From Escherichia phage YX22: 64,000 nucleotides of DNA. A model generated the notes under the pieces. The model searched no databases. It saw only the letters and a list, made by a program, of their open reading frames with translations, and was not told the DNA's origin. The stretch lies in sequence record OR776998, one strand, 5' to 3'. Shown here piece by piece: positions 6,034-63,209 of the stretch (position 1 is its first letter; each line of letters opens with the position of its first letter). The position numbers and the translations under genes were made by a program.

Positions 6034-6181
6034 GGTAAAGTCCTCTATTTGTAGGGGATAGGGTATGCGGTTAACATACCCTGTTCAAAGGTTTAGAACA
6101 AATTGCTGCAATGTTACTTTGTAACGAGATTGGTGATAGTCCCTTCATTTCAGAGTCAGTGTTGTGCTGCTTATGGAATGA

Positions 6182-6210
6182 AGTATACGGGGTTTATTGA
6201 AGAATTAAAC
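6182..6210 (-). promoter_or_regulatory. T4-early-like promoter (GTTTAA -35, 17 nt, TATACT -10)
   Basis: Minus strand GTTTAA TTCTTCAATAAACCCCG TATACT; same spacer box. Confidence 0.35.
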
Positions 6211-6235
6211 CCCGTTTATTGAATAAATTTAAAAT

Positions 6236-6941: not shown

Positions 6942-7166
6942 TCAAAGAATGTTGTGTTCGTCGATATCGGACTGCGTTGCAATCTCCCAGCGGACGACAT
7001 TTTCGGTTGTGACGAAATCACGGTTCAGGTGAGAGGCTGGCACATACACCATCGTGTCGACCATGAAGTAACACTGCTCATTGTTACAAGAATCAACGTA
7101 AACCTCGATGAGGCGCACCTCGGCAACACCGGCTTTCGGCTTCTTCACGATCTTTTTCAAGTACAT
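6942..7166 (-). CDS. hypothetical small protein
   Basis: 74 aa from ATG 7166, GAGGG SD, box-type promoter P5 upstream. Confidence 0.45.
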   Translation of the reverse strand: MYLKKIVKKPKAGVAEVRLIEVYVDSCNNEQCYFMVDTMVYVPASHLNRDFVTTENVVRWEIATQSDIDEHNIL

Positions 7167-7190: not shown

Positions 7191-7222
7191 GGGCAATAAT
7201 ACCTCTCACCCCGTTATTGAAA
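7191..7222 (-). promoter_or_regulatory. box-type promoter P5 (minus strand)
   Basis: Minus strand reads TTCAATAA CGGGGTGAGAGG TATTAT TGCCCCG, upstream of gene 6942..7166. Confidence 0.45.
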
Positions 7223-7226
7223 ACTG

Positions 7227-7427
7227 TTATCCTTCTTGTTCTTCCCAACCCCATTCATCTTCCCAAGACTGGCGAGGTGTCTTGCCCGCTTCGTAGTCAT
7301 CACGCCAGGCGTCGGCGTCGGCGGCTGAACCACCCTGGCTTTTCGCGACTTTACATAATACGTCGTGCCACTCACGGAAGGTGGAGTTGGCGACTGTGGT
7401 GTTTACAGAATCTTCTTTCAGGCTCAT
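7227..7427 (-). CDS. hypothetical small acidic Trp-rich protein
   Basis: 66 aa, GAGGAA SD, box-type promoter P6 upstream. Confidence 0.45.
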   Translation of the reverse strand: MSLKEDSVNTTVANSTFREWHDVLCKVAKSQGGSAADADAWRDDYEAGKTPRQSWEDEWGWEEQEG

Positions 7428-7456
7428 TGCGATTTCCTCGATTAATAGAGAGGGTA

Positions 7457-7482
7457 ATGATACCTTTCGCCCCGTTATTGAA
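7457..7482 (-). promoter_or_regulatory. box-type promoter P6 (minus strand)
   Basis: Minus strand reads TTCAATAA CGGGGCGAAAGG TATCAT, upstream of gene 7227..7427. Confidence 0.45.
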
Positions 7483-8963: not shown

Positions 8964-9010
8964 AATTATTCTCCTCCATATGGTATCTAGTATAACCTGT
9001 TCGATAATAT

Positions 9011-9041
9011 GAACAAATAAAAACCCCGCCGAAGCGGGGTT
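9011..9041 (-). terminator. intrinsic terminator after major capsid gene
   Basis: Minus strand AACCCCGC-TTCG-GCGGGGTT then TTTTATTTG. Confidence 0.65.
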
Positions 9042-9067
9042 TGTCAGGGTTAAGGACAACTATTCGA

Positions 9068-39820: not shown

Positions 39821-39835
39821 GGGGTATTTAGTTTT
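39821..39835 (-). promoter_or_regulatory. late-promoter-like motif upstream of tailspike 4
   Basis: Minus strand AACTAAATACCCCTAGATG..TAGGGGTATTTGAA ATG. Confidence 0.5.
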
Positions 39836-43952: not shown

Positions 43953-43978
43953 TTCAATAAACATACTCCCAATATAAT
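43953..43978 (+). promoter_or_regulatory. box-type promoter P1: TTCAATAA-N12-TATAAT
   Basis: Box about 43953-43960, TATAAT about 43973-43978, upstream of gene 44015. Confidence 0.45.
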
Positions 43979-44788: not shown

Positions 44789-45765
44789 CTCAAAGAGGAG
44801 AGGATTTTTCAAATTAGCTGGGCTGTAGTAAAGTATTAAACACGAGGCGAATAGCGCGGTGGTAGTAGGGCTGGAACCCGAAACCAGGAAAGCCCAGTCT
44901 CAGGGCACCGTGACGAATAGAGGCGTAATATCAACCTCGCTGGTGTCGGTGGACGCACTGACCGTCGGAGAACGAAACCCCCTGTTGTAGCGTGATTAGC
45001 TCAGATGCTTGAGAGCGCCCCGTTGGCGAGTCGACACCAACATATAGGGGAGGACGGATCTGCCAGGTTCCATCACGCCGACAACATTATGAGTCTTCGT
45101 AGAGGGTTCATAATGTTGCGTCAAAGGGCAACACAGGCTCCTGTTGGTAGAATTAACTTGATTCATAGTTCCTGCTGATCTTCCCGGATTCGAAGGAGCA
45201 CCAACAGGCGAGGCCGGATGCGTAAGTTCCGGCAAAACGATGGTGGCACCCTCGCCAACAAAATAAAAGGTTTTATCAATAACGGGTTACAAAGTATAGT
45301 TAACCCACTGAACGGCAAGCTGTTTGAGTCCTGGTCACTCATAGCGTTGTGAACTAAGACAGGTACGTTTAGGACTCAAACAGGTTTTCGTTGTGCGTGA
45401 CTTTGCGGGTTTTTAGAAACTGACCAAGCAAATAAATGCTAATGATTCCGAAGTTCTGATGGCGGCGTAATAGCCTATAAGTCAGCGGGGTATTCCAGTT
45501 CCCTGTAACAGAATCTGGCGCATCGCGGCCCTGAGATGTGATTAATAAGTCAGGGCATACAATGACAATTCATTCACATGATAACTTGTCAGCAATCTGT
45601 GAAATTGTTTGTAGGCATACGAACAAGAGGTAATTCGAGGGAGAATCGGCTCCTACCGTGTAACAGACCAAGTGACGTACCACTAAACCGTCCCGGGCGG
45701 TCGAAATGTGGGGAGATGAGAGTGGTCCCCTGAAGTTATCAGTTGAATGAATTGTTAAATAAAAT

Positions 45766-46772: not shown

Positions 46773-46801
46773 GGTTGACAGTCCTTGGTTGGTCACAATA
46801 A
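46773..46801 (+). promoter_or_regulatory. sigma70-like promoter for tRNA operon
   Basis: TTGACA, 16-nt spacer, AATAAT, ending a few nt before tRNA-Met. Confidence 0.45.
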
Positions 46802-46804
46802 TTT

Positions 46805-46878
46805 GGTCCTGTAGCTCAGTCGGTTAGAGCAGTGAACTCATAATTCATTGGTCGTTGGTTCAAATCCAACCAGGATCA
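46805..46878 (+). tRNA. tRNA-Met (anticodon CAU; initiator, elongator or Ile2-type not resolved)
   Basis: Cloverleaf read by hand: acceptor GGTCCTG/CAGGATC, D-arm GCTC..GAGC, anticodon loop CTCATAA, T-arm GTTGG-TTCAAAT-CCAAC, CCA encoded. Confidence 0.8.
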
Positions 46879-47134
46879 CCATGTTAAGGGGTGTGAAACA
46901 TAACACTCCGACAAACACAGTAAGCGTTGCAGCCAGCTGTGTATAAAATGGGGATGACTCCGCATCGGAAACGATGCCCCAACTTCCAGAAATGGTCGGG
47001 CGCAAAGCCTGTAAAGTTCCAGGAGATCGAACCAGAAGGCACTGGTCGCCAGTTAACCAATCGGCGCTGAGAAGCGCGGGGAGTTGGGCTACGGCAGATC
47101 AAATGCTCAATCGGGTGTGAAGCCCGTCCAAATT

Positions 47135-51048: not shown

Positions 51049-51097
51049 GATGTATTTCCTTCTCTTCAGATTGTTGTTTGTTCGTACTACAATTAGA

Positions 51098-51126
51098 AGT
51101 ATACGCCAGTTATTGAAGAAGTAAAC
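51098..51126 (-). promoter_or_regulatory. T4-early-like promoter (GTTTAC -35, 17 nt, TATACT -10)
   Basis: Minus strand GTTTAC TTCTTCAATAACTGGCG TATACT; spacer contains the TTCAATAA box. Confidence 0.4.
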
Positions 51127-52050: not shown

Positions 52051-55050
52051 ATGACCGTTTTCTATACGAACGTTGCCCGCAGGGGCAATGACCTGTTGAT
52101 TCGAATTGCAGATGACATGGGTAATCGCCGTCTGTTGAAAAAGAAATTCGAACCCACTCTCTATTTACCCACGGCTGACTATTCAAATGTTGAAAAGGTC
52201 GGCCTTCTCAATGAACCCCTGGTAGCCAAGCAGTTCCCTTCCATGCGTGACGCTGATAACTATCTTGAAGAGTACAAGGAAGTCCAGGGTGCTGCCATTT
52301 ACGGGCAGACCGATTATGCATACCAGTTCATTGCCCATAGCTTTCCTGGAAAGATTGAGCCGGATTATTCCAACATCCATATTGCTAACCTCGATATCGA
52401 AGTGTTCTCCGCCGGGTGGAAAGATGGAAAGATGACCAAAGGTCCATTCCCTCACCCAACCATTGAGCAGCAGACGTTCAAAGGAAATGAGGCGCGCATT
52501 CGCCGCTTCCATAAACAAGTGCTGGCCAACCATGACTTCATCCGTGAGCACTTCCCTGGTTCTTTCATCAGCAACAACGTCACTGATCAGTTCCCTATCA
52601 TTGACAGCAACGGCAAGATCACCCAAGACATGAATGCGGCGTTCCCTATCACGCTTATCCAGCTTCAGGACATGGCGACCAATAAGTTCATGGTGTGGGG
52701 TATGCCGTGCGCGAAGGATCGTGCGAAGTTCAGATACGATCCAGAAGACGCGGAGATCGGTGGACTTGAGGTTGTCTATCAGGAGTTCACTACTGAACAA
52801 GATCTGCTGCGCTCTTTCCTGGACTTCTGGTCGGAGCGTCAGTTTGATGGCTGGACAGGCTGGAACATTGAAACGTTCGATAGCCCGTATCTTGTTGAGC
52901 GCATGAATCAGGTTCTGGGTGAGGCTGAAACGTCGCGCCTCAGTCCTTGGGGTATCATTAAGAAGCGTATCATTCGCGATAAGAAGGGCGATATCACGAC
53001 GTATCAGTTCGTGGGTTGCCCTATGCTCGATTATATGCAGATCTACAAGAAACACACGTACACCACCCGTGAACGCTACTCTCTTGACTGGATTGCGTAT
53101 TGTGAGCTGGGTGAGAAGAAGATGGACTACAGTGAGAGCAAGTCACTCTTTGATCTGTACTTCAACGACTACTGCAAACACACCCGATATGGTATCAAAG
53201 ACGTTAAGCTGGTATGGCGACTTGAACAGAAGCTGCGCCTGCTCCAGCTGATGTTCGTCCTGGCCTACCGCACCAAGTCCAACTATGAAGACGGTCTGGG
53301 CACTGTGGCTCCGTGGCTGGCCATGTGCTACTATCGTCTGTATGAGAAGGGGATAGTGCCTAAGATCCAGCGTGTATACGATGGTCCGACCGACTTTGAG
53401 GGTGCATACGTCATGGATGTGACACCAGGAATCTACTTCTGGGTCTTCTCGGAAGATTTGAACTCCCTGTATCCTCACATCATTCAGCAGTACAACCTCG
53501 GTCCAGAGACTATCGTTGGCGACAAACACCAGCGCCGTGAGATTATTGAGGCTATGTGTGAAGAGCTGGCTGCTCAGATGAATAACATGGCAACGCCGAT
53601 GCACAAACGTCGGTTGATGAAAGCCCTTCACGACAAGCTGTTGCGTGCGGTTGACGAACGCCTGCAGGTTGTTGATGAGTTGGTTGCCCTGGGTGAGTTC
53701 CACTTTGAAACCCTGCGCCGTTACAACGTGTCGTTCACGCCGAACGTTCAATTCTTCAGCAACGAGAAGATGTCGTTCCTGTCTGAAATCATGCGCGGTA
53801 TCTACAGCGACCGTAAAGTAGAGAAGGCCAAGGGTCTGAAGTATGAGCAGTGGGCTGGCTGGTGTAAAGAGATGTCGAAGGGTGACTTCCATCTTGAGTC
53901 TGCCATGAAGTCTCGCTACTATGACCCAGAGTGGTATGAAGAGCACAAGAACATTGATCTTGATGCCCTGACCGAAGTGATGAAGAAGTGGGAAGACCTG
54001 GGCGTCGCTCAAGATACCCTACAGCAAGGTCTGAAGATCTTGATGAACGCAGGTTATGGCGCTATCTCGAACGTCTGGTTCAAAGAGTACTTCAACCTCA
54101 ACATTGCCGAAGCCATCACCACATCCGGTCAGCTGATCAACAAGTGGAATAAGCGTTACACTGATGACTATCTGAACAAGCTGTGTGGTACAACAGGCCA
54201 GGACTTCGTCATCGCAGGGGATACCGACTCCAACTACATCTGCATTGAGCGTCTTGTCAAGCAGTTGTGGCCTGATGTTACTGACCATCATGCTATGGTT
54301 GATAATATCGACCAATGGATCAAAGACAACTACCAGCCGAAGACCAATGAGTGGGCACAGCTTCTGTGTAACACCATGAACGGATTTGAACAGCGCATGG
54401 TGTGGGAGCGTGAGGTCATTGCGTCAGCCGCTGTCTGGCGAGCCAAGAAGATGTATGCCATGGCCGTGTACGACAGTGAGGGTATCAAGTACGAGAAGCC
54501 GAAGATCAAGTTCAAAGGTCTGGAAGCCCGCAAGTCCACCACGCCGGAATGGTGTCGTGAACGCCTTGTCAAGTGCTATGAGAAGATCCTACTCGGCACC
54601 GAAGAGGAAGTACAGACGCTCATCTCCCAGTACAAAGAGGAGTACATGAAACTCTCTGTAGACGATATCGCCAAGGCTTCCGGCGTGTCCGACATAGAGA
54701 AGTGTGTGGCTGCTGACGGATCGTTCATCTCTGGTGCTCATTTTGCTGCAAAGGCTTGTGTGGGTTACAACCGTCTGGTTGAGAAGAACGAAGATCTGGG
54801 TCTACCGATGATCGAGTCGGGTGATAAGGTACAGATGGTGTTGTTGAAGCCAGGCAACCCATTCGGCCAGAATTACTTTGCATATCCTGAGTTCTTCCCC
54901 GAGGAGCTTGGTCTGGGTAAATGGGTGGATTATCAGGCGGCCTTTGAGAAGTCCTTCATTGATCCGATTCAGTCTATCCTCGACGTGGTCGGCTGGTCAC
55001 ACAAGCGCCGTGTGAACCTTCTTGCCATGATGCAAAAGAAGAAAGGTTGA
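52051..55050 (+). CDS. gp43: family B DNA polymerase, T4 gp43-like
   Basis: N-terminus MTVFYTNVARRGNDLL.. matches T4 MKEFYISIETVGNNIV..; SYSLDWIAYCELGEKK, VAGDTDS and KKMYA motifs; GGAGAA SD. Confidence 0.9.
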   Translation: MTVFYTNVARRGNDLLIRIADDMGNRRLLKKKFEPTLYLPTADYSNVEKVGLLNEPLVAKQFPSMRDADNYLEEYKEVQGAAIYGQTDYAYQFIAHSFPGKIEPDYSNIHIANLDIEVFSAGWKDGKMTKGPFPHPTIEQQTFKGNEARIRRFHKQVLANHDFIREHFPGSFISNNVTDQFPIIDSNGKITQDMNAAFPITLIQLQDMATNKFMVWGMPCAKDRAKFRYDPEDAEIGGLEVVYQEFTTEQDLLRSFLDFWSERQFDGWTGWNIETFDSPYLVERMNQVLGEAETSRLSPWGIIKKRIIRDKKGDITTYQFVGCPMLDYMQIYKKHTYTTRERYSLDWIAYCELGEKKMDYSESKSLFDLYFNDYCKHTRYGIKDVKLVWRLEQKLRLLQLMFVLAYRTKSNYEDGLGTVAPWLAMCYYRLYEKGIVPKIQRVYDGPTDFEGAYVMDVTPGIYFWVFSEDLNSLYPHIIQQYNLGPETIVGDKHQRREIIEAMCEELAAQMNNMATPMHKRRLMKALHDKLLRAVDERLQVVDELVALGEFHFETLRRYNVSFTPNVQFFSNEKMSFLSEIMRGIYSDRKVEKAKGLKYEQWAGWCKEMSKGDFHLESAMKSRYYDPEWYEEHKNIDLDALTEVMKKWEDLGVAQDTLQQGLKILMNAGYGAISNVWFKEYFNLNIAEAITTSGQLINKWNKRYTDDYLNKLCGTTGQDFVIAGDTDSNYICIERLVKQLWPDVTDHHAMVDNIDQWIKDNYQPKTNEWAQLLCNTMNGFEQRMVWEREVIASAAVWRAKKMYAMAVYDSEGIKYEKPKIKFKGLEARKSTTPEWCRERLVKCYEKILLGTEEEVQTLISQYKEEYMKLSVDDIAKASGVSDIEKCVAADGSFISGAHFAAKACVGYNRLVEKNEDLGLPMIESGDKVQMVLLKPGNPFGQNYFAYPEFFPEELGLGKWVDYQAAFEKSFIDPIQSILDVVGWSHKRRVNLLAMMQKKKG

Positions 55051-55082
55051 TTCAATAAACCAAAGGGGGATATAATTCCCCC
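55051..55082 (+). promoter_or_regulatory. box-type promoter P2 with -10 hexamer in hairpin loop
   Basis: TTCAATAA ACCAAAGGGGGA TATAAT TCCCCC directly after polymerase stop. Confidence 0.45.
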
Positions 55083-55112
55083 TGTTAACCCTTTGACAAA
55101 CAGGTGATTGAA

Positions 55113-55454
55113 ATGAAACTCAATAAGATTCTTCTGGTGTGCGCTCTGGCTTTCTCTACCACTGCGTGCTCCACCCTTCTGGACGTTGCGTCTACTGTAG
55201 ACCTTGACGCGCCGACGTTCACCAATGAGCAGGCTGTGTCCAAGATGGAAGACACCATCAAGGCGCATGCGGCGTTGGATAACGCCACCCCAGGTCCGCT
55301 CCAAACTGTCTGCAACTATGACGATTCCATCCAGGAAGACGAAACTTACCACTGCATCACCTACGTGAAGCAGGCCTCCGTCGTTCTGTATGCAGATTGT
55401 ACCGAAGAACAGTGTGTTGCTACAGGCTACGATAAAGTTGAGGAAGACAAATGA
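55113..55454 (+). CDS. small secreted or lipoprotein
   Basis: Signal peptide MKLNKILLVCALAFSTTAC; start at ATG 55113 with AGGTGA SD (track start 55104 is GTG). Confidence 0.5.
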   Translation: MKLNKILLVCALAFSTTACSTLLDVASTVDLDAPTFTNEQAVSKMEDTIKAHAALDNATPGPLQTVCNYDDSIQEDETYHCITYVKQASVVLYADCTEEQCVATGYDKVEEDK

Positions 55455-56230
55455 ACAACCTGGTTTGTATCTATGATATGAAATCAAAGGTCGGTGGTCT
55501 GTATCGCGTCCTCGTGGATGTTGACCTGACGTTGGTCGACAGCCTCTCCCCTTGGGTGCAGTGGTTCAATGAAGAGAACATCGCCGCCGCTGCTATCGCT
55601 ACGGGGGAACATAAGTCATACCAGTTCCAGCCGATTACTAAAGAGTGTTATATGTCCCATGCTGGCGACCTGGCTATTCTGATGCGTGAACGTGCGCATC
55701 CGGCGTGGCTATACCATGAAGTCCAATTGGGGATGCACAAACAACGTGTGCCAAGCGGTAACGATCCTATGGACTGGTGGCGTCGCCCTGACTTGTACGC
55801 CAAGATGAACCCGCTCCCCGGCGCTTACGAGTTCCTGGTAAATCTGAAGGATATCTTGCTTGAAGATTTCGACAATGTTGAATTCATCGCGGTGTCGAAG
55901 TGCGAGCCGGAACACGAGCGCAGCAAGCGCCAGTTTGTCTATGACAAGTTCCCTGGTATCTTCAACGGGTTTGTCAGCACCGACGAAAAGCATCTGCTGG
56001 CTGGCGATGTCCTGATTGATGACAATCCGAAGTATGTCGAGCCATGCGGCCTGAACAACATCTTTGTCATCTTTGTTCCTCAGGGCAATTATGAAAAACT
56101 GGATCTTTCGAACTCGGAAGATATGCTTTATATTAAACCAGTAGAAGGCCAGAACCACTTCGACTTCCTGAATCACAATATTATTGAAGTGGTCAATCGC
56201 CTGATTAGTCATTATCAATACGTCCGATAG
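55451..56230 (+). CDS. HAD-superfamily phosphatase (nucleotidase candidate)
   Basis: Motif I VDVDLTLVD (DxDxT), later FIAVSK and GDVLIDDNPK. Confidence 0.5.
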   Translation: MNNLVCIYDMKSKVGGLYRVLVDVDLTLVDSLSPWVQWFNEENIAAAAIATGEHKSYQFQPITKECYMSHAGDLAILMRERAHPAWLYHEVQLGMHKQRVPSGNDPMDWWRRPDLYAKMNPLPGAYEFLVNLKDILLEDFDNVEFIAVSKCEPEHERSKRQFVYDKFPGIFNGFVSTDEKHLLAGDVLIDDNPKYVEPCGLNNIFVIFVPQGNYEKLDLSNSEDMLYIKPVEGQNHFDFLNHNIIEVVNRLISHYQYVR

Positions 56231-56239
56231 GAGGACATC

Positions 56240-56545
56240 GTGCAAGAACAATCCAAGTTTGGGGAAACCCCAGACAAGCGTTCCGGTGATAGCGACATGG
56301 ATAGCGTGATTAACCATGTGAACAACTTCATTCGTCAGCAGGAGACTCCAACTCCTATCGGTGCAGCCAAGGCTCTTCATGATGTACTGGTGAAGATCGG
56401 CCAGCGCTCTGAAGCGGATGAAATCTTCTATAACTTTGAAGACCAGTATAAAGTGAAGTTTGAAGAAAACGGTCGTCCGCAGGTTGCTGTGTTCTGGGCA
56501 CCTTGGCTGGGCGGCGTGAGCTGGCGTATTGAGGATGCTGTGTGA
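56240..56545 (+). CDS. hypothetical protein
   Basis: 101 aa ORF, overlaps next gene start. Confidence 0.5.
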   Translation: MQEQSKFGETPDKRSGDSDMDSVINHVNNFIRQQETPTPIGAAKALHDVLVKIGQRSEADEIFYNFEDQYKVKFEENGRPQVAVFWAPWLGGVSWRIEDAV

Positions 56546-58143
56546 TGTCTCGCTACCATTACACATATAGGATAACCCATGTCCCAACTGGTAGATTCTA
56601 CGTCGGGATTCGGTCTTGTTCATGCACCCCCGAACAAGATCCCTATATGGGTTCTGGTGTGATCATCAAAAGGTTGTTGGAATCTCACCCCGCTTCTGAA
56701 TTCTTAAAGACGATAATAGAAAAGTTTGAAACCAGGTTGGAAGCATCCGACCTGGAGTCTATTATTGTTACGGAAGAGTTACTGTTGGACCCATTATGCC
56801 TGAACCTGAAATTGGGAGGAGACAATTCTATCATCCCAAACCAATTTAAGGCGGCGTTGGCTAGGACTGGCAAGAAATACAAATCTGGTATAAATCCTTG
56901 GGATGATCCAGAATACCGGGAACGTGTAATAAAATCAATAAAGGAGAACAGGGGTAATTCTCCCTACCCATTCATGGTTTCAAATGGTTATTGGTGGGTT
57001 TGGAAGGACGCCTGTAGGATCTATGATAGATGGGTGAACAACGGTGGTACTGTGAATCCTACCTGTATGCCAAAACGAGGATGTGGTTACAAATCTATCG
57101 GATTGTGGTATTCTAAACTACTGGACACAGAGTATCGTAATCTAAAGGGCGATGAGAGCGTCTTTCGTAATATGATCGCCATGTTTAAAGATGGTTGGAT
57201 TCCCAAAGAGGACAAACGTTTTATGACTATGATAAATTCTAGCGTGACGCCGGGTATTGTCGTTATTCGCGGGACAAGTGGAACGGGAAAGGGGACTCGT
57301 GTCGTTCAATTCCTTGAGTGGTTGAGAACCAAATATGAGCCAGAACTCATAGAATACGAATTCGACAAGAAGATGATCCAGGTTGGGTTTTGGTTCAAGG
57401 AAATCAATCTGGTGTTCATCGGCAAGTATACAGTGTCCAACAAATCAGGTCTAGCATCATGGACTTCCATGGATTTCATACACTCCACTCTCAAGTCTTC
57501 TGAGATGGCCAATTCGTTGTTGAAGTATCTCAAAATAAAGTTCAAAGATGCAACTATCATCTTGGAGGGGGAACCTATGATGCAGAGCCATCGTTGGCGT
57601 CCCGAGTTCGTACACCAGGACTTGGGGTTCAACAACATGGCATTCATCTCCTTTATTTACCAAGCGCGGGAAGATTACGACAAACGTATCATCGGTCGTT
57701 CTGGTAAGGCGGCGAAGGACACTGGCTGGGGAAGAAATGAACAATACACCAAGGATCACGTCAAGATCATGGGTGAGTACGCTTCCATCGGATACGAACT
57801 TGAACCAGACTCTCAGAATGAGTTGTTCATTGCAAAGGCAGCGAATGAAAATGGTGTAAAGGCAGTTGGTTGGAATATACTGAAATTCTTCGATGCCCCT
57901 CTCCACTTTATTGGTAGTTTTATTATAGATTTTGTTGGATTGAGAGGGTTGTCCAAAGAAGAGTTTCAAAAATATTGCGACACCACACCAATGTTGCGCA
58001 AGATTAAGGGTAGCAACCCTTTGGCGCACAGAGTCCCTGAGAAGCCGCAGAAGGCATCCAAAACTAAAACCAAGGCGAGCGCCCAGCCAGAAGCAACGAA
58101 GGCAGCGTCGCGCTCTCTCCTTGACCTGATGAAGAAGGGGTGA
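56542..58143 (+). CDS. GIY-YIG endonuclease domain in frame with a P-loop NMP-kinase-like domain (fusion, or two genes with kinase start near 57223)
   Basis: N-terminus YHYTYRITHVPTGRFYVGI..YMGSG; downstream GTSGTGKGT Walker A; internal ATG 57223 preceded by AGAGGA. Confidence 0.55.
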   Translation: MMSRYHYTYRITHVPTGRFYVGIRSCSCTPEQDPYMGSGVIIKRLLESHPASEFLKTIIEKFETRLEASDLESIIVTEELLLDPLCLNLKLGGDNSIIPNQFKAALARTGKKYKSGINPWDDPEYRERVIKSIKENRGNSPYPFMVSNGYWWVWKDACRIYDRWVNNGGTVNPTCMPKRGCGYKSIGLWYSKLLDTEYRNLKGDESVFRNMIAMFKDGWIPKEDKRFMTMINSSVTPGIVVIRGTSGTGKGTRVVQFLEWLRTKYEPELIEYEFDKKMIQVGFWFKEINLVFIGKYTVSNKSGLASWTSMDFIHSTLKSSEMANSLLKYLKIKFKDATIILEGEPMMQSHRWRPEFVHQDLGFNNMAFISFIYQAREDYDKRIIGRSGKAAKDTGWGRNEQYTKDHVKIMGEYASIGYELEPDSQNELFIAKAANENGVKAVGWNILKFFDAPLHFIGSFIIDFVGLRGLSKEEFQKYCDTTPMLRKIKGSNPLAHRVPEKPQKASKTKTKASAQPEATKAASRSLLDLMKKG

Positions 58144-58343
58144 TCATGAAACGGTTGTCTAATTATCTGTTGTTCATTGGTCTGGTTATGGCAGCCGTTT
58201 CAATGTGTACTGCCCTAGCCTATCATTTCACCCCTCTGGACTTAACAACCTCAGAGAAGTTGAACGTGACTGTGATGTACTGTATTGGCGCGGTGATGTC
58301 TATCGGCGCTGCTGGTTACAAAATATTCAAGGAACCAAAATGA
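58140..58343 (+). CDS. small two-helix membrane protein
   Basis: 67 aa, GAAGGGG SD, overlaps neighbours. Confidence 0.45.
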   Translation: MIMKRLSNYLLFIGLVMAAVSMCTALAYHFTPLDLTTSEKLNVTVMYCIGAVMSIGAAGYKIFKEPK

Positions 58344-58717
58344 AAATTCAAATCCCTCGCGATGCTGTGGCTGTTGCGATTGACTACACCGGAAACGCCA
58401 AGCACATTACTGCCGTGCGCCTGATTCCTGAAAAGAACTGCGTCATCCCTCAGTTCCAGCTGAATGCTAATCCGTCGTCCAAAGACTTCGGCAAGTGGTT
58501 GCAGGCTGCTCCGTTCCGTACCCAGACGAATGCTCAGATGTTCATCTCGGGTAAGACCCAAACTGCAGCCCGTCTGTGGTTCGTGACCGCTGACCGTCGC
58601 TTTGTCGATATGTGGGAACGTCCGATGGGGTTCGTGAAGCCGGAAGATATTCAGCTGGATCCTGAGCCTGAAGCTGTGGCTCCTGAAGAGGAAGCGAAAG
58701 ATGCATCATTTATCTAA
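58340..58717 (+). CDS. hypothetical protein
   Basis: 125 aa from ATG 58340 with AAGGAACC SD. Confidence 0.5.
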   Translation: MKIQIPRDAVAVAIDYTGNAKHITAVRLIPEKNCVIPQFQLNANPSSKDFGKWLQAAPFRTQTNAQMFISGKTQTAARLWFVTADRRFVDMWERPMGFVKPEDIQLDPEPEAVAPEEEAKDASFI

Positions 58718-59936
58718 AATGCCGACGGGCTATACGCCTCCGGCTGAATGGAAGTACCCGATTGACCTGGCTGTTGATTATCGCAAGCCTGAGAATCGCA
58801 TGTACCTGCTCAAGGCTTGGGTGGAGGCGCTGTCCTACACAGAAGAGCACAACCAGCAGATGCGTCTGATGGACTATGCGATCGAAGTCACTGAAGGCAT
58901 CAGCCTCGAACAGAAAGTCGAGCGCAAGATCTGGATGGCATTCCTGTGGGGTTGTTGCTATAACGCTGTCGGACCGTGGACAATCTACAGTGAGTTCCCT
59001 GTACCACCCCAGTCCAAAGAAGAGATGCAGCGCTTCTCAGACTGGTACAACCTGAACTTTGAACGCATGCGATTCGATACCGACTGTCGCTACCGCAAGT
59101 CCAAGATGATTCCGTGTGTTCAGTCCTATATTGACTGGCTGGCTGGCCGTACTCAATATGACGCTTTCCGTGGGATGTTGGTGTGCATCGATAAGACAGA
59201 ACAATTCACCCAGCTGTGGGACACGGCGATGTCCTGGAAATACTTCGGTCGCCTGAGCGCCTGGAACTTCCTGGAAGCCCTGAACATGGTCTTCGGGAAC
59301 GAATACACCATTGACGTCCCTGGGTTCATGTTGCGTGACCGTGATGGAAGCGAGTCCAACCGTAATGGCGCGGCGTTCTTGTCCAACCGTGACGATTGGG
59401 TGACTAAACACGGGAAGAAAAAGATCAACGGTTGTCCTATCACGGATGAAGAGTGTGACATCCTTGAGGCCGACCTTGAGCAGGCGTTCCAGGATTGTGT
59501 GGCTGAGTTCGGGCACCTGACGTTCATCAACCGCCTGAACTTTGAAACCTCCGGTGCTTGTTGGCTGAAGAAATTCTTCCGACTGAAGAATACCCGTTAC
59601 ATCGGGTGGGACGCAGAGCGTACCTGGGATGAGATAGACTACATGGAACGCGTCTGGCCTGAATACTCCTGCGCAGCGCTCTGGGAAGCCCGTTCTCTCT
59701 GGCTGCCAGATACCCTGTTGTGTGAAAAGGCTCCTGCAGGGCACGTTCCAGGCGTCCAGAAGTGGAAGATGCCTGTGTTCTTTGAGACTGGTGTTCCTCT
59801 GCATATCTGGCACCTGCAAAGGGGTACGCGCTGGGAACCGTCCGAGGTATGTACGAACCTGAAGATGCCTGTGCGCAAGGTTGAGGACAAGCCGAAGTCC
59901 AGCAGCGTCAACCTCATGACACTCTTGAAACGCTGA
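58701..59936 (+). CDS. hypothetical 411-aa protein (DNA-modification enzyme candidate by context only)
   Basis: Long ORF overlapping upstream gene; Trp/Cys-rich; no motif recognised. Confidence 0.5.
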   Translation: MHHLSKMPTGYTPPAEWKYPIDLAVDYRKPENRMYLLKAWVEALSYTEEHNQQMRLMDYAIEVTEGISLEQKVERKIWMAFLWGCCYNAVGPWTIYSEFPVPPQSKEEMQRFSDWYNLNFERMRFDTDCRYRKSKMIPCVQSYIDWLAGRTQYDAFRGMLVCIDKTEQFTQLWDTAMSWKYFGRLSAWNFLEALNMVFGNEYTIDVPGFMLRDRDGSESNRNGAAFLSNRDDWVTKHGKKKINGCPITDEECDILEADLEQAFQDCVAEFGHLTFINRLNFETSGACWLKKFFRLKNTRYIGWDAERTWDEIDYMERVWPEYSCAALWEARSLWLPDTLLCEKAPAGHVPGVQKWKMPVFFETGVPLHIWHLQRGTRWEPSEVCTNLKMPVRKVEDKPKSSSVNLMTLLKR

Positions 59937-59972
59937 TATAAATATCCTCGCCTATAAAGCGAGGATATTATC

Positions 59973-60140
59973 ATGTTACAAGATCTGCTGGTTTATGCGC
60001 TTCCTGGCGCGGTTGTCGGCTTCATCGCTGGTGCTCTGGTCTTCCGTAAACACGCGCAAGATGGTGAAGTGATTGTTCAGAAAGGCAAAGAGATTCTGGA
60101 CCAGATCGAAGCCAAACTGGAAGAGCTGAAGAAAAAGTAA
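59973..60140 (+). CDS. small single-pass membrane protein (55 aa), absent from ORF track
   Basis: GAGGA SD lies inside the 3' arm of a 10-bp hairpin; LLVYALPGAVVGFIAGALVF helix. Confidence 0.4.
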   Translation: MLQDLLVYALPGAVVGFIAGALVFRKHAQDGEVIVQKGKEILDQIEAKLEELKKK

Positions 60141-60159
60141 TCTGACTGGGGTTGCTTCC

Positions 60160-60207
60160 TTCAATAAAGGGGAATGGGTTATTATTAGCCCGTTCCCCTT
60201 TCTTTTT
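60160..60207 (+). promoter_or_regulatory. box-type promoter P3 overlapping an intrinsic terminator
   Basis: TTCAATAA AGGGGAATGGGT TATTAT TAGCCCGTTCCCC TTTCTTTTT. Confidence 0.5.
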
Positions 60208-60308
60208 GCAAGAATATACATCATGGCAATGCAACGAATTGAAGATATGTCTCTACTCAACATGGAAGCGACTTTTGGCGCTTCCGTTATCGTCATGGGA
60301 GAATCCAA

Positions 60309-60527
60309 ATGATCAAGAATACCCGAACAATGAAGCGCGCAATCGCTCACTGTGTCCATTCAGTGGCAACTATTATGTTCCGCCACCACATCACATTTGA
60401 TGAAGCACTGGACCCACAGTACCATGAAGAGCGTTGGGATTTGTTGTTAAAGAACGGTGCCAATCCTGAGCATAAAGATCAACTCCTTGGGATGACCAAG
60501 GCGCAGCTCGTCGGTGAATCCAAATGA
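60309..60527 (+). CDS. hypothetical small protein
   Basis: 72 aa, GGGAGAA SD. Confidence 0.45.
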   Translation: MIKNTRTMKRAIAHCVHSVATIMFRHHITFDEALDPQYHEERWDLLLKNGANPEHKDQLLGMTKAQLVGESK

Positions 60528-61636
60528 TCTACCTCCTGTTTGGTGTGCCATTGGTACTGGCTATCCTGTTTGTGATCTACCACCGCAAGACCCATGAGCC
60601 GAAAGAGACTCTGATAGCGACCGCGATTGTAGTGGTGCTATCCTGTCTGATTCAGGCGGGGACTTATGCTGCGTTCTCCCTTGGCAGTTCAGGGGATGTT
60701 GAGATCCTGAACGGGTACGTCACTGCAAAGGAGCGGAATGAGGTGAGCTGTGAGCATTCATATGAATGCAACTGTTACTACACCACATCGTGCTCCGGCT
60801 CCGGCAGCAGCAAGTCCTGTACCCGCACTCGCCATTGCAGTACATGTTATGAGCATTCATATGACGTGGACTGGGATGTGTTGACGACTGTCGGTAATCT
60901 GACGATTGACCGCATTGATCGTCGCGGCCTTGGTCAGCCCCCGCGCTGGGCGCAGGTTCAGATCGGCGAACCCGCAGCCCGTGAGCATTCCTACATGAAC
61001 TATGTGCTGGGTAACAAGGACTCTCTGTTCTCTCGTTCAGACCAGCAGTTTGCTGAGCGCTTCAAAGACAAGATTCCGAAGTATCCCGAAGTCTATGACT
61101 ACTATCGCGTCACTCGTGTACTGAATGTGTCTGGTCTGGCGTTACCGACCACATACTGGAACGATTATCTGAACAATACTCTGAAAACATTAGGTGCTTC
61201 ACGTCAGGTCAATATCGTCTGGGTTGTGACATCCGGTCAGCCAGTTGAATACTTCCAGGGCTTGGTCTATGCTTGGGATGGTGGTAAAAAGAACGACGTT
61301 ATCGTCGTGACCGACATCAGCAAAGATCTGAAGATCAACTGGGGTAAGAGCACTTCGTTCGCTGATGGTATGCATAACCGTGAACTCCATTCTCGTAATG
61401 GCATGGCTCTCACAGGTCACGACATGGGCGTCGGTGTCATGGCTGATGTTGTCGCTAACATCACCAAAGGCTACAACCGCGTTGAGATGAAGGAAATGGA
61501 GTACCTGAAGTGGCGGGAACTCAAGACCTGGGAAGTTGTGGTTGTTGTTCTGCTGGGCTGCTTACCATTCACCGCAATTTTCATATTGCAGCGAATGGAG
61601 TACAATGGTGGTCGTCGTTATCCGTTTAATTTTTAA
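60524..61636 (+). CDS. Cys-rich membrane protein
   Basis: 370 aa; N-terminal and C-terminal hydrophobic helices; CEHSYECNCYY..CSTCYEHSYD cluster. Confidence 0.55.
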   Translation: MIYLLFGVPLVLAILFVIYHRKTHEPKETLIATAIVVVLSCLIQAGTYAAFSLGSSGDVEILNGYVTAKERNEVSCEHSYECNCYYTTSCSGSGSSKSCTRTRHCSTCYEHSYDVDWDVLTTVGNLTIDRIDRRGLGQPPRWAQVQIGEPAAREHSYMNYVLGNKDSLFSRSDQQFAERFKDKIPKYPEVYDYYRVTRVLNVSGLALPTTYWNDYLNNTLKTLGASRQVNIVWVVTSGQPVEYFQGLVYAWDGGKKNDVIVVTDISKDLKINWGKSTSFADGMHNRELHSRNGMALTGHDMGVGVMADVVANITKGYNRVEMKEMEYLKWRELKTWEVVVVVLLGCLPFTAIFILQRMEYNGGRRYPFNF

Positions 61637-61654
61637 TCAAAAGAGGAAGTAAGA

Positions 61655-62224
61655 ATGTCTCAATCTAAGGGTATTGCAACAGGTTGGATAGTTGGTTTGG
61701 CTTTGCTGGGTGTAGTGATTCTCGGCATCGGTACAGTCATCAGCTACTTCAACGACTTCAACCGCACTGAGCAGCAGGTCAAGAAGTTCAACAAAGACTC
61801 CGAGAACTACCTGAGCAACTACACGCTCAAAGTTCAAGAGACGGCGCAGATTCCTGACATGTATAAAGACGGCCTGAAGGAAGTGATCAAAGGCACGTTC
61901 GAAGGACGTTATGGCGCTGATGGTTCCAAGGCCGTCATGCAGTGGATCCAAGAGCAGAATATTCAGTTCGATTCCAGCCTGTACAAAGAGATCCAGGTGG
62001 TGATCAGTTCTGGGCGTGATGAATTCCGCATCAGCCAGACCAAGAAGCTGGATATCTGCACAATATACGAAACCAAGCTGGCTCAGTTCCCTGGTTCGTT
62101 GATTGCTGGCATGTTCGGCTACCCGCGTATCGACCTTGACAAGACCTGTCAGGTGGTGAGTGATACCCGTACCCAGGCCGCGTTCGACGCTGGTATTCAG
62201 AAACCGATTAACTTCAAAGGCTGA
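61655..62224 (+). CDS. membrane-anchored protein
   Basis: 189 aa with N-terminal TM helix. Confidence 0.5.
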   Translation: MSQSKGIATGWIVGLALLGVVILGIGTVISYFNDFNRTEQQVKKFNKDSENYLSNYTLKVQETAQIPDMYKDGLKEVIKGTFEGRYGADGSKAVMQWIQEQNIQFDSSLYKEIQVVISSGRDEFRISQTKKLDICTIYETKLAQFPGSLIAGMFGYPRIDLDKTCQVVSDTRTQAAFDAGIQKPINFKG

Positions 62225-62228
62225 TGTC

Positions 62229-62642
62229 ATGAGCGTGAAACTCACTGAATCCCTGACACTGGACCAACAGCAGGCTCTGTTGGATGAAGTAGTGATCTCT
62301 GCTATCAAGCAAGGGATTATCAAAGACGACTTGTTGATTGACCGCCCCGAGATGATCCATCATCTGGTGGTGTGCCTGGGTGAGGCCAGCAACCCTCGCA
62401 AGAAGATCGTGCTGTTTACTGATGGTGTGATCCTTCCGAGCGGGAAATGTGCGTTCTTGGATGTGGTTGAACATCCGAACACGAAAGGCAAAGAGGTCAA
62501 GACTTCTGTTCCGGTGACTCCATACACCGAGGGTGTTGACCAGCTGTCTTGGTTTGAGACAATCAACACCATTTATGTGATGACACCGGACGGTAAACCA
62601 GTTCGGGATCTACGAGGCGGCAAAGTAGAATCTGAAGACTAA
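62229..62642 (+). CDS. hypothetical protein
   Basis: 137 aa from ATG 62229 with AAAGG SD. Confidence 0.5.
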   Translation: MSVKLTESLTLDQQQALLDEVVISAIKQGIIKDDLLIDRPEMIHHLVVCLGEASNPRKKIVLFTDGVILPSGKCAFLDVVEHPNTKGKEVKTSVPVTPYTEGVDQLSWFETINTIYVMTPDGKPVRDLRGGKVESED

Positions 62643-62648
62643 TCGTTC

Positions 62649-62690
62649 TTCAATAAAAGGGGATAGGGTATTATTGCTCTATCCCCTTTT
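62649..62690 (+). promoter_or_regulatory. box-type promoter P4 overlapping an intrinsic terminator
   Basis: TTCAATAA AAGGGGATAGGG TATTAT TGCTCTATCCCC TTTT. Confidence 0.5.
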
Positions 62691-62753
62691 CATGGACAGG
62701 AACATGACAGACAAGCCAAGAAAGATGAAGAACAAACGCCGGAGCAAACGCTG

Positions 62754-63209
62754 ATGACTACCAAACCAACTTATGAAGAACTGGCACAGACCGTTCTGAC
62801 CTTTGACAGCACCCTGAAGAATCTTTACAAGGTGCTGGGAAATAACCCGACTTCAGAGTCAGGAGAAACAGTTAATCTTCTGTTACTGATGAACCCTCTG
62901 TGGGATATTGATGCCACTGTTGCTGCCCTGAAAGATCCTGAGGCACAGGAGCCGGAGCCAACCCCTGTATCCACTGGGATTCAGAAATACCTGGAGAACT
63001 TTGACGAGTACTCCTTCACCGATCTGCTCCTGCGTGATATGATCAACGCAGAACGCCGTCGCCAGGGGAAGAACTGTCCTGTGGTCCAGTCTGATGAAGA
63101 AATCGAGCAGAGTGTTCGAGAAGATCTGAACAACACCTACTCGCCGATCGATCTGGCTGTAATGATTGTTCAGGCGCTGTCCTATGCTGCCAAGGGGGAA
63201 ACGAAATGA
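62754..63209 (+). CDS. hypothetical protein
   Basis: 151 aa, GGAGCA SD, box-type promoter P4 upstream. Confidence 0.5.
   Translation: MTTKPTYEELAQTVLTFDSTLKNLYKVLGNNPTSESGETVNLLLLMNPLWDIDATVAALKDPEAQEPEPTPVSTGIQKYLENFDEYSFTDLLLRDMINAERRRQGKNCPVVQSDEEIEQSVREDLNNTYSPIDLAVMIVQALSYAAKGETK

What the first reader, a model, noticed from the sequence alone, without database searches (positions are those of the whole stretch)
55051..62690. Intergenic hairpins that combine an intrinsic terminator with a box-type promoter (TTCAATAA-N12-TATNAT)
Six intergenic sites share TTCAATAA, exactly 12 nt, then TATAAT/TATTAT/TATCAT (plus strand near 43953, 55051, 60160, 62649; minus strand near 7222 and 7482). The 12-nt spacer is G-rich (AGGGG..GGG), and at 55051, 60160 and 62649 it forms the 5' arm of a GC stem whose loop is the -10 hexamer. 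At 60160 and 62649 the stem is followed by a T-run. Each sits just after a stop codon and 25-100 nt before the next start. A box at about -30 with 12-nt spacing and no -35 hexamer is the architecture of T4 MotA-dependent middle promoters, with a different box sequence. Transcripts starting past the -10 would lack the 5' arm, so the same DNA could terminate upstream transcription and start a new one.
Basis: partly seen in the sequence, partly recalled or inferred. Interest (0 to 1): 0.75.

Follow-up and report, generated by a model that had tools for sequence, protein, structure and literature searches.

The report
Promoter-in-terminator cassettes of ViI-like phage
The repeated TTCAATAA-N12-TATNAT sites are the already-described signature promoter motif of ViI-like (Ackermannviridae) phages, often packed inside a terminator hairpin much like the composite promoter/terminator cassettes of T4-type phages; what reads the upstream box is still unknown.

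Summary
There are six exact TTCAATAA-N12-TATNAT sites in the window against 0.01 expected. All are intergenic and point at the next gene. The window is an Aglimvirinae (Ackermannviridae) phage. The motif is conserved at orthologous sites in five genera, and TTCAATAA is the commonest intergenic 8-mer in LIMEstone1. Strong hairpins with the -10 at the tip exist at 55051, 60160 and 62649; only the last two have a U-tract. Sites 43953 and 7482 have no hairpin and 7221 has a weak one. Genome-wide, half of the intergenic motif sites carry a stem of 7 bp or more around the -10, against 2% of -10-like hexamers.

It is not new as a motif. A 2020 paper lists "TTCAAT[N14]TATAAT" as a unique regulatory motif of this family, and LIMEstone1's GenBank record already overlaps a terminator and a -10 at one site. 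The architecture matches PeSLs, the tested composite promoter/stem-loop cassettes of T4-type phages. This includes cassette shuffling: window 7222-7482 is an extra ORF flanked by two motif copies, where phage ZQ1 has one chimeric copy.

The MotA analogy is geometric only. The box differs, and no MotA or AsiA homologue was found. No 5' or 3' end mapping exists.

The parts
55051..55083 (+). Composite element 'a', immediately after the DNA polymerase stop codon (TGA 55048-55050). Box TTCAATAA 55051-55058; -10 TATAAT 55071-55076; 7-bp GC stem 55064-55070 / 55077-55083 with the hexamer as the loop. No U-tract on the + strand. Predicted start about 55083-55084; next ATG at 55113.
   Evidence: Conserved in LIMEstone1, AG3, S117, KN2-1 and IME250. 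In phiMAM1 the stem is different (GGGGGC/GCCCCC) but the -10 is still in the loop. One search scores it as terminator-like on the minus strand only.
60160..60207 (+). Composite element 'b'. Box 60160-60167; -10 TATTAT 60180-60185; 16-bp stem 60166-60181 / 60186-60201; U-tract TTTCTTTTT 60199-60207. Upstream stop TAA at 60138-60140; predicted start about 60192 (G); next ATG at 60223.
   Evidence: terminator-like, 16 pairs; -26.5 kcal/mol, z -6.6. Conserved across genera, while the first downstream ORF differs between them.
62649..62690 (+). Composite element 'c'. Box 62649-62656; -10 TATTAT 62669-62674; 16-bp stem 62655-62670 / 62675-62690 ending in TTTT. Upstream stop TAA at 62640-62642; predicted start about 62681 (A); next ATG at 62704 (a 16-codon remnant), then the gene at 62754.
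   Evidence: (-25.4 kcal/mol, z -7.9). LIMEstone1's GenBank record annotates the orthologous site with overlapping 'terminator' and 'minus_10_signal' features.
43953..43978 (+). Hairpin-free copy of the motif (TTCAATAA-N12-TATAAT) in the divergent gap between the minus-strand baseplate wedge gene (ends 43700) and the + strand gene starting at 44015.
   Evidence: no significant fold. Orthologous sites in ZQ1 (9308) and S117 (134461) also lack a hairpin.
7196..7221 (-). Motif copy (TTCAATAA-N12-TATTAT) upstream of the 74-aa ORF 6942-7166. Weak CGGGG/CCCCG stem, no U-tract.
   Evidence: (z -0.4).
7457..7482 (-). Motif copy (TTCAATAA-N12-TATCAT), 8 nt after the stop of a homing-endonuclease gene (7491-9059) and upstream of the 66-aa ORF 7227-7427. 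No hairpin.
7222..7482 (-). Cassette of 261 bp (one motif copy plus the 66-aa ORF) bracketed by the two motif copies. It is absent from the 97%-identical phage ZQ1, which has a single chimeric element whose crossover lies inside the 12-nt spacer.
   Evidence: alignment. This is the same pattern as PeSL-mediated ORFan insertion and deletion (PMC2839356).
47529..47575 (+). Degenerate member (TTCAATGA-N13-TAAAAT) with a GGGGGTT...AACCCCC hairpin, upstream of the gene at 47597.
   Evidence: The orthologous LIMEstone1 site (131628) overlaps an annotated terminator.
45275..45300 (+). Degenerate member (ATCAATAA-N12-TATAGT) in the tRNA / small-ORF region.
   Evidence: Conserved in LIMEstone1 (128730), ZQ1 (10633) and S117 (135842).
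51073..51126 (-). Second architecture that uses the same octamer: GTTTAC-TTC-TTCAATAA-N6-TATACT. This is a sigma70 / T4-early-like promoter with the box inside the -35/-10 spacer.
   Evidence: Similar sites in LIMEstone1 at 94288, 61763 and 55449.
6157..6223 (-). Two octamers 22 nt apart. The first is followed directly by an ACGGGGT/ACCCCGT hairpin. The second sits in the hairpin loop and in the spacer of a GTTTAA-N17-TATACT promoter.
   Evidence: The orthologue in LIMEstone1 (94288/94310) is annotated as 'putative early promoter'.

Best explanation
These are the family-specific early or middle promoters of a ViI-like (Ackermannviridae, Aglimvirinae) phage. Each has a sigma70-type -10 hexamer, and an invariant TTCAATAA box at -32..-25 stands where a -35 would be. 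Where a co-directional gene ends just upstream, the sequence-free 12-nt spacer and the initially transcribed region have been recruited as the two arms of a G/C stem-loop. One stretch of 45-60 bp therefore serves two purposes.

(a) As RNA, it terminates or attenuates the incoming transcript when a U-tract follows, or caps its 3' end when none does.
(b) As DNA, it launches a new transcript about 7 nt past the hexamer. That transcript lacks the 5' arm and cannot terminate itself.

Functionally they are the Ackermannviridae counterpart of the PeSL composite promoter/terminator cassettes of T4-type phages, including their side-role as recombination linkers for small ORF cassettes.

Shown here: the motif, its spacing, its intergenic and oriented placement, its conservation, its hairpin association, and one cassette indel.
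Inferred: promoter activity, the start site, termination, and whatever reads the box.
For: - Motif excess: 6 observed against 0.01 expected.
- TTCAATAA is the top intergenic 8-mer in LIMEstone1. 19 of its 28 copies lie in the 7% of the genome that is intergenic, P = 4e-16.
- All 17 curated LIMEstone1 sites point at the downstream gene. Those genes are non-structural: tk, denV, nadV, an HU-like protein and small ORFs. Structural genes carry the separate late motif CTAAATACCCC instead.
- Box-to-hexamer spacing is fixed: N12 in 31 of 47 distinct sites, the rest N11-14. Stem length varies from 0 to 16 bp, so the constant feature is the promoter geometry and not the RNA structure.
- Copies without a hairpin keep both box and spacing; the divergent-junction copy in the window (43953) is one.
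- 9 of 18 intergenic sites have a perfect stem of 7 bp or more enclosing the -10, against 2.3% of -10-like hexamers genome-wide, P = 8e-11. Every hairpin-bearing site follows a co-directional gene that ends within about 20 nt.
- Ordinary terminators in the same genome have TTCG or GAAA tetraloops and no box.
- Stems differ between paralogous sites, and in phiMAM1, yet always close around the hexamer.
- The element is conserved across Limestonevirus, Agtrevirus, Kuttervirus and Taipeivirus, and in diverged form in Miltonvirus, even where the downstream ORF is unrelated.
- Literature: the motif is listed as a family regulatory motif (PMC7283392). PeSLs have experimentally shown promoter and terminator activities, GGGG..CCCC stems and stem-loops overlapping the -10, and they start at the upstream stop codon (PMC2839356).
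Against: - No 5' or 3' end mapping or reporter data for any Ackermannviridae promoter was found.
- Without a -35 hexamer or a TGn extended -10 (no T at -15), sigma70 holoenzyme alone would be expected to use these sites poorly. An unidentified factor, or an unusual mode of recognition, has to be assumed.
- Only 2 of the 6 window sites, and roughly 7 of 11 hairpin sites in LIMEstone1, have a U-rich tail.
- 55051 scores as a terminator only on the opposite strand.
- The same octamer also occurs in other positions: inside the spacer of -35-containing promoters, directly before hairpins that have no -10 in the loop, and in a few antisense copies. The box may therefore have a role beyond this one architecture.
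- The orthologous sites are nearly identical, so true compensatory changes at a single site are few.
Confidence: 0.72

Rival explanations
1. These are middle-class promoters read by host sigma70-RNAP that has been remodelled by phage proteins. A MotA-like activator binds the -30 box, and an AsiA-like co-factor disables -35 recognition.
For: - The geometry matches T4 middle promoters: a box centred near -29, 12 +/- 1 nt to a sigma70 -10, and no -35.
- Downstream genes are of the nucleotide-metabolism and replication-accessory type.
- A separate set of -35-containing, T4-early-like promoters exists that could be the true immediate-early class.
- Kutter et al. say the family's early and middle control is unexplained.
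Against: - The box sequence is unrelated to the MotA box.
- T4 MotA (sequence verified 100% against Z48569) and AsiA give only noise (E of about 0.5 or more) against the window, ZQ1, LIMEstone1 and S117.
- Pfam hits on 139 small LIMEstone1 proteins showed no MotA or AsiA family among the 25 listed (the list was truncated).
- No candidate activator was identified.
- The phage needs many promoters that work on naked host RNAP, and canonical ones are few. That argues these could be the early class instead.
Confidence: 0.25
2. They are only terminators or RNA-stabilising 3' hairpins. TTCAATAA is an A-rich upstream tract, and also the U-rich tail for the opposite strand. The TATNAT loops are incidental A/T-rich loops with no promoter function.
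For: - The octamer's complement TTATTGAA serves as a T-rich tail on the other strand at 55051 and at LIMEstone1 13822 and 76044.
- Some octamers precede hairpins that have no -10 in the loop (6223; LIMEstone1 61763).
- Palindromic sites read as a motif on both strands (S117 37879/37928).
Against: - Copies without any hairpin keep the box, the exact N12 spacing and the hexamer (43953, 7482; S117 26490, 86171, 134461).
- The spacing is fixed while stem length varies.
- T-A-T-x-A-T is conserved at information content of 1.2 to 2 bits, which a loop does not require.
- Other terminators of the genome use tetraloops and have no box.
- The distance to the next ATG is constant at 29-37 nt.
Confidence: 0.06
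3. The hairpin acts at the DNA level. Supercoiling extrudes a cruciform that presents the -10 as single-stranded loop DNA, which compensates for the missing -35. This would be a hairpin promoter in the manner of the phage N4 early promoters.
For: - The -10 sits at the tip of the stem in about half of the sites.
- The promoters lack both a -35 and a TGn.
Against: - Half of the sites have no stem, yet are equally conserved.
- Stems of 5-7 bp extrude poorly.
- At 60160 and 62649 part of the hexamer is paired.
- This use of hairpins by sigma70 holoenzyme is not known to me (own knowledge).
Confidence: 0.04

Closest known systems
The 'TTCAAT[N14]TATAAT' regulatory motif of ViI-like / Ackermannviridae phages. 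It is quoted in Thanh et al. 2020 (EspM4VN, PMC7283392). From memory it derives from Adriaenssens et al. 2012, 'Viunalikevirus', Arch Virol, which is not held in the library.
   Same: It is the same sequence: TTCAATAA-N12-TATAAT equals TTCAAT-N14-TATAAT. It comes from the same phage family and is paired with the late motif CTAAATAcCcc, which is also present in the window.
   Different: The accessible text only lists positions. It says nothing on the hairpin overlap, on timing, or on what recognises the box. I could not read the original description.
PeSL (promoter-early stem-loop) composite promoter/terminator cassettes of T4-type phages: RB49/phi1, T4/PST and KVP40/nt-1. Sources are Arbiol et al. 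2010 (PMC2839356) and Comeau et al. 2014 (PMC4122927).
   Same: - An intergenic element that begins at the upstream stop codon.
- A promoter plus a GGGG..CCCC stem-loop, commonly placed between -35 and -10 or overlapping the -10.
- A Shine-Dalgarno sequence and ATG close downstream.
- Association with small ORFs of unknown function.
- One phage has an ORF flanked by two copies where its close relative has a single chimeric copy (window 7222-7482 against ZQ1).
   Different: - PeSL promoters are canonical sigma70 promoters with a -35 and an upstream A/T-rich region. Here the -35 is replaced by TTCAATAA at a 12-nt spacing.
- PeSL promoter and terminator activities were measured with reporters. 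Nothing has been measured here.
- PeSLs have not been reported in Ackermannviridae in the papers I could read.
T4 MotA/AsiA-dependent middle promoters
   Same: A sigma70-type -10, no -35, and a conserved box centred near -30 at 12 +/- 1 nt from the -10.
   Different: - The box sequence differs: TTCAATAA against (a/t)(a/t)(a/t)TGCTT(t/c)A.
- There is no MotA or AsiA homologue.
- Hairpin overlap is not a known feature of T4 middle promoters (own knowledge).

Membership tests
Ackermannviridae TTCAAT[N14]TATAAT regulatory motif | Sequence TTCAAT, 14 nt, TATAAT-like hexamer | tested here: met
   Six exact sites in the window. The string is quoted in PMC7283392.
Ackermannviridae TTCAAT[N14]TATAAT regulatory motif | The genome belongs to the ViI-like / Ackermannviridae family | tested here: met
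   97% nucleotide identity to Escherichia phage vB_EcoM-ZQ1 and others (Aglimvirinae) and 89% to LIMEstone1.
Ackermannviridae TTCAAT[N14]TATAAT regulatory motif | Co-occurrence with the second family motif, CTAAATAcCcc | tested here: met
   Eleven sites with at most 1 mismatch. Several of the exact copies lie upstream of tail-spike or baseplate-region genes (39831, 36743, 33367); a few of the mismatched matches lie inside coding sequence.
PeSL composite promoter/terminator cassette | Intergenic element combining a promoter with a stable stem-loop, starting at the upstream stop codon and ending at the SD/ATG of the next gene | tested here: met
   55051, 60160 and 62649: stop-to-box 0-19 nt, stems of -14 to -26.5 kcal/mol, ATG 29-37 nt after the -10. 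In LIMEstone1, 9 of 18 sites carry stems.
PeSL composite promoter/terminator cassette | The promoter is a strong canonical sigma70 promoter with -35, -10 and an upstream A/T-rich region | tested here: not met
   There is no -35 hexamer. Information content at -37..-33 is 0.6 bit or less. A TTCAATAA box at -32..-25 takes its place.
PeSL composite promoter/terminator cassette | Stem-loop generally built from GGGG...CCCC and often overlapping the -10 | tested here: met
   Described in PMC2839356.
PeSL composite promoter/terminator cassette | Mediates insertion and deletion of ORF cassettes by recombination between copies | tested here: met
   Window 7222-7482 against the single chimeric element in ZQ1. 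Unrelated first ORFs follow the conserved element b in different genera. The evidence is comparative only; mini-circles were not tested.
PeSL composite promoter/terminator cassette | Demonstrated promoter and terminator activity | not testable with these tools
   Requires reporter assays or transcript-end mapping.
T4 MotA-dependent middle promoter | MotA box (a/t)(a/t)(a/t)TGCTT(t/c)A centred at -30 | tested here: not met
   The box is TTCAATAA.
T4 MotA-dependent middle promoter | Sigma70 -10, no -35, and 11-13 nt between box and -10 | tested here: met
   N12 in 31 of 47 distinct sites, N11-14 in the remainder.
T4 MotA-dependent middle promoter | The phage encodes MotA and AsiA | tested here: not met
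   tblastn and phmmer against four sequences gave a best E of about 0.5. MotA hits in the phage collection were T4-type genomes in every listed row. Kutter et al. 2011 report none. Structural analogues are not excluded.
Intrinsic (Rho-independent) terminator | G/C-rich hairpin immediately followed by a U-tract on the transcribed strand | tested here: inconclusive
   Met at 60160, and weakly at 62649 (four U). Not met at 55051, 7221, 7482 or 43953.

The most novel reading that the evidence does not exclude
The TTCAATAA box is the binding site of an as yet unidentified Ackermannviridae-encoded factor. This would be a non-homologous functional analogue of T4 MotA/AsiA sigma appropriation. At -32..-25 it would activate the -35-less promoters. 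The same octamer also sits inside the -35/-10 spacer of the T4-early-like promoters (GTTTAC-TTC-TTCAATAA-N6-TATACT), and there the factor would shut them off. One protein and one octamer would then drive the early-to-middle switch that Kutter et al. 2011 described as unexplained in this family.
Probability: 0.2. Interest if true: 0.65.

Novelty: new member of a known kind. Interest (0 to 1): 0.3.

Why it matters
Ackermannviridae (ViI, CBA120, LIMEstone and relatives) are widely used as biocontrol and therapy phages. Even so, their pre-late transcription programme has never been mapped. They lack Alt, ModA, MotA and AsiA, and only a handful of canonical sigma70 promoters can be found in them.

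Recognising that the family motif is a -35-less box promoter, usually fused to the preceding gene's stem-loop, has three uses:
- It gives a concrete map of transcription units for annotation and engineering. Many annotated start codons and 'terminators' overlap these elements.
- It explains why small ORF cassettes come and go at these points.
- It defines a sharp experimental question: what reads TTCAATAA?

It does not by itself reveal a new mechanism.

Tried and rejected
- Literature search for the literal octamer plus phage terms found nothing relevant. Searches for Ackermannviridae transcript mapping also found nothing. The original 'Viunalikevirus' paper (PMC4174289 / doi 10.1007/s00705-012-1360-5) is not held.
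- A canonical -35 upstream of the box: only 55051 has a plausible TTGATT at 18 nt. The other sites have none, and TTGCTT at 60152 is 22 nt from the hexamer. Rejected as a general feature.
- An extended -10 (TGn): rejected. There is no T at -15 in any N12 site, only a preference for G at -16..-13.
- MotA or AsiA homology: none. The Pfam scan of 139 small LIMEstone1 proteins listed only the top 25 of 82 families, so it excludes only strong hits.
- Rfam: only two tRNAs in 43-64 kb, and no RNA family at the hairpins.
It showed only that contigs with several hits are of Ackermannviridae size and was not analysed further.
- A greedy longest-ORF gene call for the window was unreliable. I used the annotations of relatives instead.
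- No candidate box-binding protein was pursued by structure prediction, because there was no rational way to choose among dozens of small ORFs. Resemblances to IHF or H-NS sites were considered from memory and judged unconvincing.

Full report
**Identity of the window.** Megablast of 54000-63000 finds 97% identity over the full length to Escherichia phages vB_EcoM-ZQ1, PC3 and PH4 and to Enterobacter phage fGh-Ecl02. It finds about 89% to the Dickeya LIMEstone group. These are Ackermannviridae of the subfamily Aglimvirinae. The finding's region lies downstream of an intact 999-aa DNA polymerase gene (52051-55050), in a run of small + strand genes that leads towards rIIA.

**Checking the observation.**
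- The exact pattern TTCAATAA-N12-TATNAT occurs six times at the stated coordinates, against 0.01 expected. The octamer alone occurs 14 times against 2.5 expected.
- 55051 folds as a 7-bp G/C stem whose hexaloop is exactly UAUAAU (-14.1 kcal/mol, z -2.3).
- 60160 folds as a 16-bp stem (-26.5 kcal/mol, z -6.6) and 62649 as a 16-bp stem (-25.4 kcal/mol, z -7.9). In both, the hexamer sits at the tip.
- T-runs follow at 60160 (TTTCTTTTT) and 62649 (TTTT), but not at 55051. The consensus scan calls 55051 terminator-like only on the minus strand, where the complement of the box supplies the T-rich tail.
- 43953 and 7482 do not fold, and 7221 folds no better than shuffles.
- Stop-to-box distances are 0-19 nt. 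The exception is 43953, which sits in a divergent gap. The distance from the -10 to the next ATG is a constant 29-37 nt.
The 'terminator' label applies to only two of the six sites.

**Is it a genome-wide signal?** I assembled the LIMEstone1 genome with its complete annotation.
- TTCAATAA is the single most frequent 8-mer in its intergenic DNA. 19 of 28 copies fall in the 7% of the genome that is intergenic, P = 4e-16.
- A relaxed scan (box with at most 1 mismatch, N11-14, TAnnnT with at least 4 of 6 matches) gives about 15-18 credible sites per genome in LIMEstone1, ZQ1 and the Kuttervirus S117.
- All 17 curated LIMEstone1 sites point towards the downstream gene. Those genes are non-structural: tk, denV, nadV, an HU-like protein, and small ORFs after gp41 and DNA polymerase.
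- Structural genes are instead preceded by CTAAATACCCC, which is also present in the window.
- The position matrix of 31 distinct N12 sites shows the box at -32..-25 with 1.3-2 bits per position. There is nothing at the -35 position and no T at -15, so it is not an extended -10. There is a G preference at -16..-13 and a G seven nt after the hexamer, which is the likely start.

**Conservation.**
- The three sites of the finding are conserved, hairpins included, in LIMEstone1, AG3 (Agtrevirus), S117 (Kuttervirus), and KN2-1 and IME250 (Taipeivirus).
- In phiMAM1 (Miltonvirus) the site after the DNA polymerase gene is TTCAATAT-N14-TATACT, with a different stem (GGGGGC/GCCCCC) that still closes around the hexamer.
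- Element b is conserved while the first ORF behind it is unrelated in Aglimvirinae, Kuttervirus and Taipeivirus.

**Hairpin association.**
- In LIMEstone1, 9 of 18 intergenic motif sites have a perfect stem of 7 bp or more (4 or more G:C pairs) that encloses the hexamer. Only 2.3% of all -10-like hexamers do, P = 8e-11.
- All hairpin-bearing sites follow a co-directional gene that ends within about 20 nt. Among the copies without a strong stem, three lie where no co-directional gene lies upstream, and two follow homing-endonuclease genes.
- An inventory of intergenic hairpins shows that the ordinary terminators of the genome have TTCG, GAAA or CGAA tetraloops and no box. About 10-11 hairpins carry a -10-like loop, and nearly all of those have the box at N11-14.
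- The box-to-hexamer distance is fixed while stem length ranges from 0 to 16 bp. The constrained object is therefore a DNA-level promoter geometry, and the stem is an overlay.

**Prior knowledge.**
- Thanh et al. [quoted passage not shown] This is the same motif. From memory it originates in the 2012 'Viunalikevirus' paper, which I could not access.
- LIMEstone1's GenBank record already overlaps a terminator with a 'putative promoter' -10 at the orthologue of 62649. It also labels one octamer site as a 'putative middle promoter'.
- Kutter et al. 2011 report that ViI-like phages lack Alt, ModA, MotA and AsiA, and that early promoters could not be identified (PMC3184105).
- I found no transcript-end mapping for the family.

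**Closest system.** PeSLs (promoter-early stem-loops) of T4-type phages are composite intergenic cassettes.
- They start at the upstream stop codon.
- They contain a promoter and a GGGG..CCCC stem-loop, most often between -35 and -10 or overlapping the -10.
- They end at the SD/ATG of the next gene.
- Their promoter and terminator activities were measured.
- Recombination between copies inserts or deletes ORFans (PMC2839356; PMC4122927).

The window shows the same behaviour. Interval 7222-7482 holds a motif copy plus a 66-aa ORF (7227-7427) and is bracketed by the two minus-strand motif copies. The 97%-identical phage ZQ1 has one chimeric copy, with the crossover inside the spacer. The difference from PeSLs is the promoter type: a box at -30 instead of a -35.

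**The MotA analogy.**
- The geometry fits. The rest does not.
- The box is unrelated to the MotA box.
- T4 MotA (my recalled sequence proved 100% identical to Z48569) and AsiA (recalled from memory, not verified) give only noise against the window, ZQ1, LIMEstone1 and S117.
- A Pfam scan of 139 small LIMEstone1 proteins showed no such family among those listed (truncated list).
- A functional analogue cannot be excluded.
- The same octamer also lies inside the spacer of -35-containing, T4-early-like promoters (GTTTAC-TTC-TTCAATAA-N6-TATACT). Examples are window 51126-51073 and 6210-6157 on the minus strand, and LIMEstone1 94288, 61763 and 55449. This leaves room for a single box-binding factor that activates one class and represses the other. 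That is speculation.

**Verdict.**
- The signal is real, strong and well conserved.
- It is best read as the family's known -35-less signature promoter, fused where needed to the preceding gene's stem-loop. That makes it a PeSL-like cassette in a family where PeSLs had not been described.
- The motif is already in the literature, the composite principle is known, and no function has been measured.
- The open and testable question is what recognises TTCAATAA.
- Interest is modest at 0.3. I rate the novelty as a new member of a known kind.

Noticed in passing
window 7222-7482 (-): A 261-bp cassette (one promoter copy plus a 66-aa ORF, 7227-7427) lies between two motif copies. The 97%-identical phage ZQ1 has a single chimeric element at this place, with the crossover in the 12-nt spacer. 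This is PeSL-style modular shuffling.
   Followed up: yes
window 51073-51126 (-) and 6157-6223 (-); LIMEstone1 94288, 61763, 55449: A second promoter architecture re-uses the octamer inside the -35/-10 spacer: GTTTAC-TTC-TTCAATAA-N6-TATACT. At 6223 a further octamer directly precedes a hairpin whose loop holds the second octamer.
   Followed up: partly
window minus strand at 39831, 36743, 33367, 5045, 1848 (also 49618 on the + strand): The late-type motif CTAAATACCCC is followed about 15-25 nt later by its inverted complement GGGGTAT(TT), just before the start codon. This predicts a 5'-leader hairpin that sequesters or frames the ribosome-binding region of late mRNAs.
   Followed up: no
window about 60210-60225 and downstream of 51073 (-); LIMEstone1 many sites: A conserved string (A)CTATATCATG or ATACATCATG lies immediately upstream of, and includes, the start codon of many early-region genes. 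TATATCAT occurs 11 times in intergenic DNA of LIMEstone1 and once in coding DNA.
   Followed up: no
window 60223-60312 and 62704-62754: The first ORFs behind elements b and c are internally deleted relative to LIMEstone1 and AG3: 29 aa instead of 70 aa, and about 16 aa instead of about 121 aa.
   Followed up: partly
window 52051-55050 (+): The DNA polymerase gene is one uninterrupted 999-aa ORF. In LIMEstone1 and ZQ1 it is annotated in several pieces, separated by intron or homing-endonuclease ORFs.
   Followed up: no
window 46775-46802 (+): A near-consensus sigma70 promoter (TTGACA-16-AATAAT, 11 of 12 matches) abuts tRNA-Met (46805-46881). A start from it would fall inside the tRNA.
   Followed up: no
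S117 37879(+)/37928(-) and 75664(+)/75693(-); ZQ1 67332(+)/67381(-): At some hairpins the element is palindromic enough that both strands read as box-like, then N12-14, then a TATNAT hexamer. This could mean bidirectional termination, or an antisense promoter aimed into the upstream gene.
   Followed up: no
window 7491-9059 (-); LIMEstone1 F-LimVI and F-LimVII: Homing-endonuclease genes end a few nt upstream of motif copies that lack hairpins. This suggests that mobile genes insert next to these elements.
   Followed up: no
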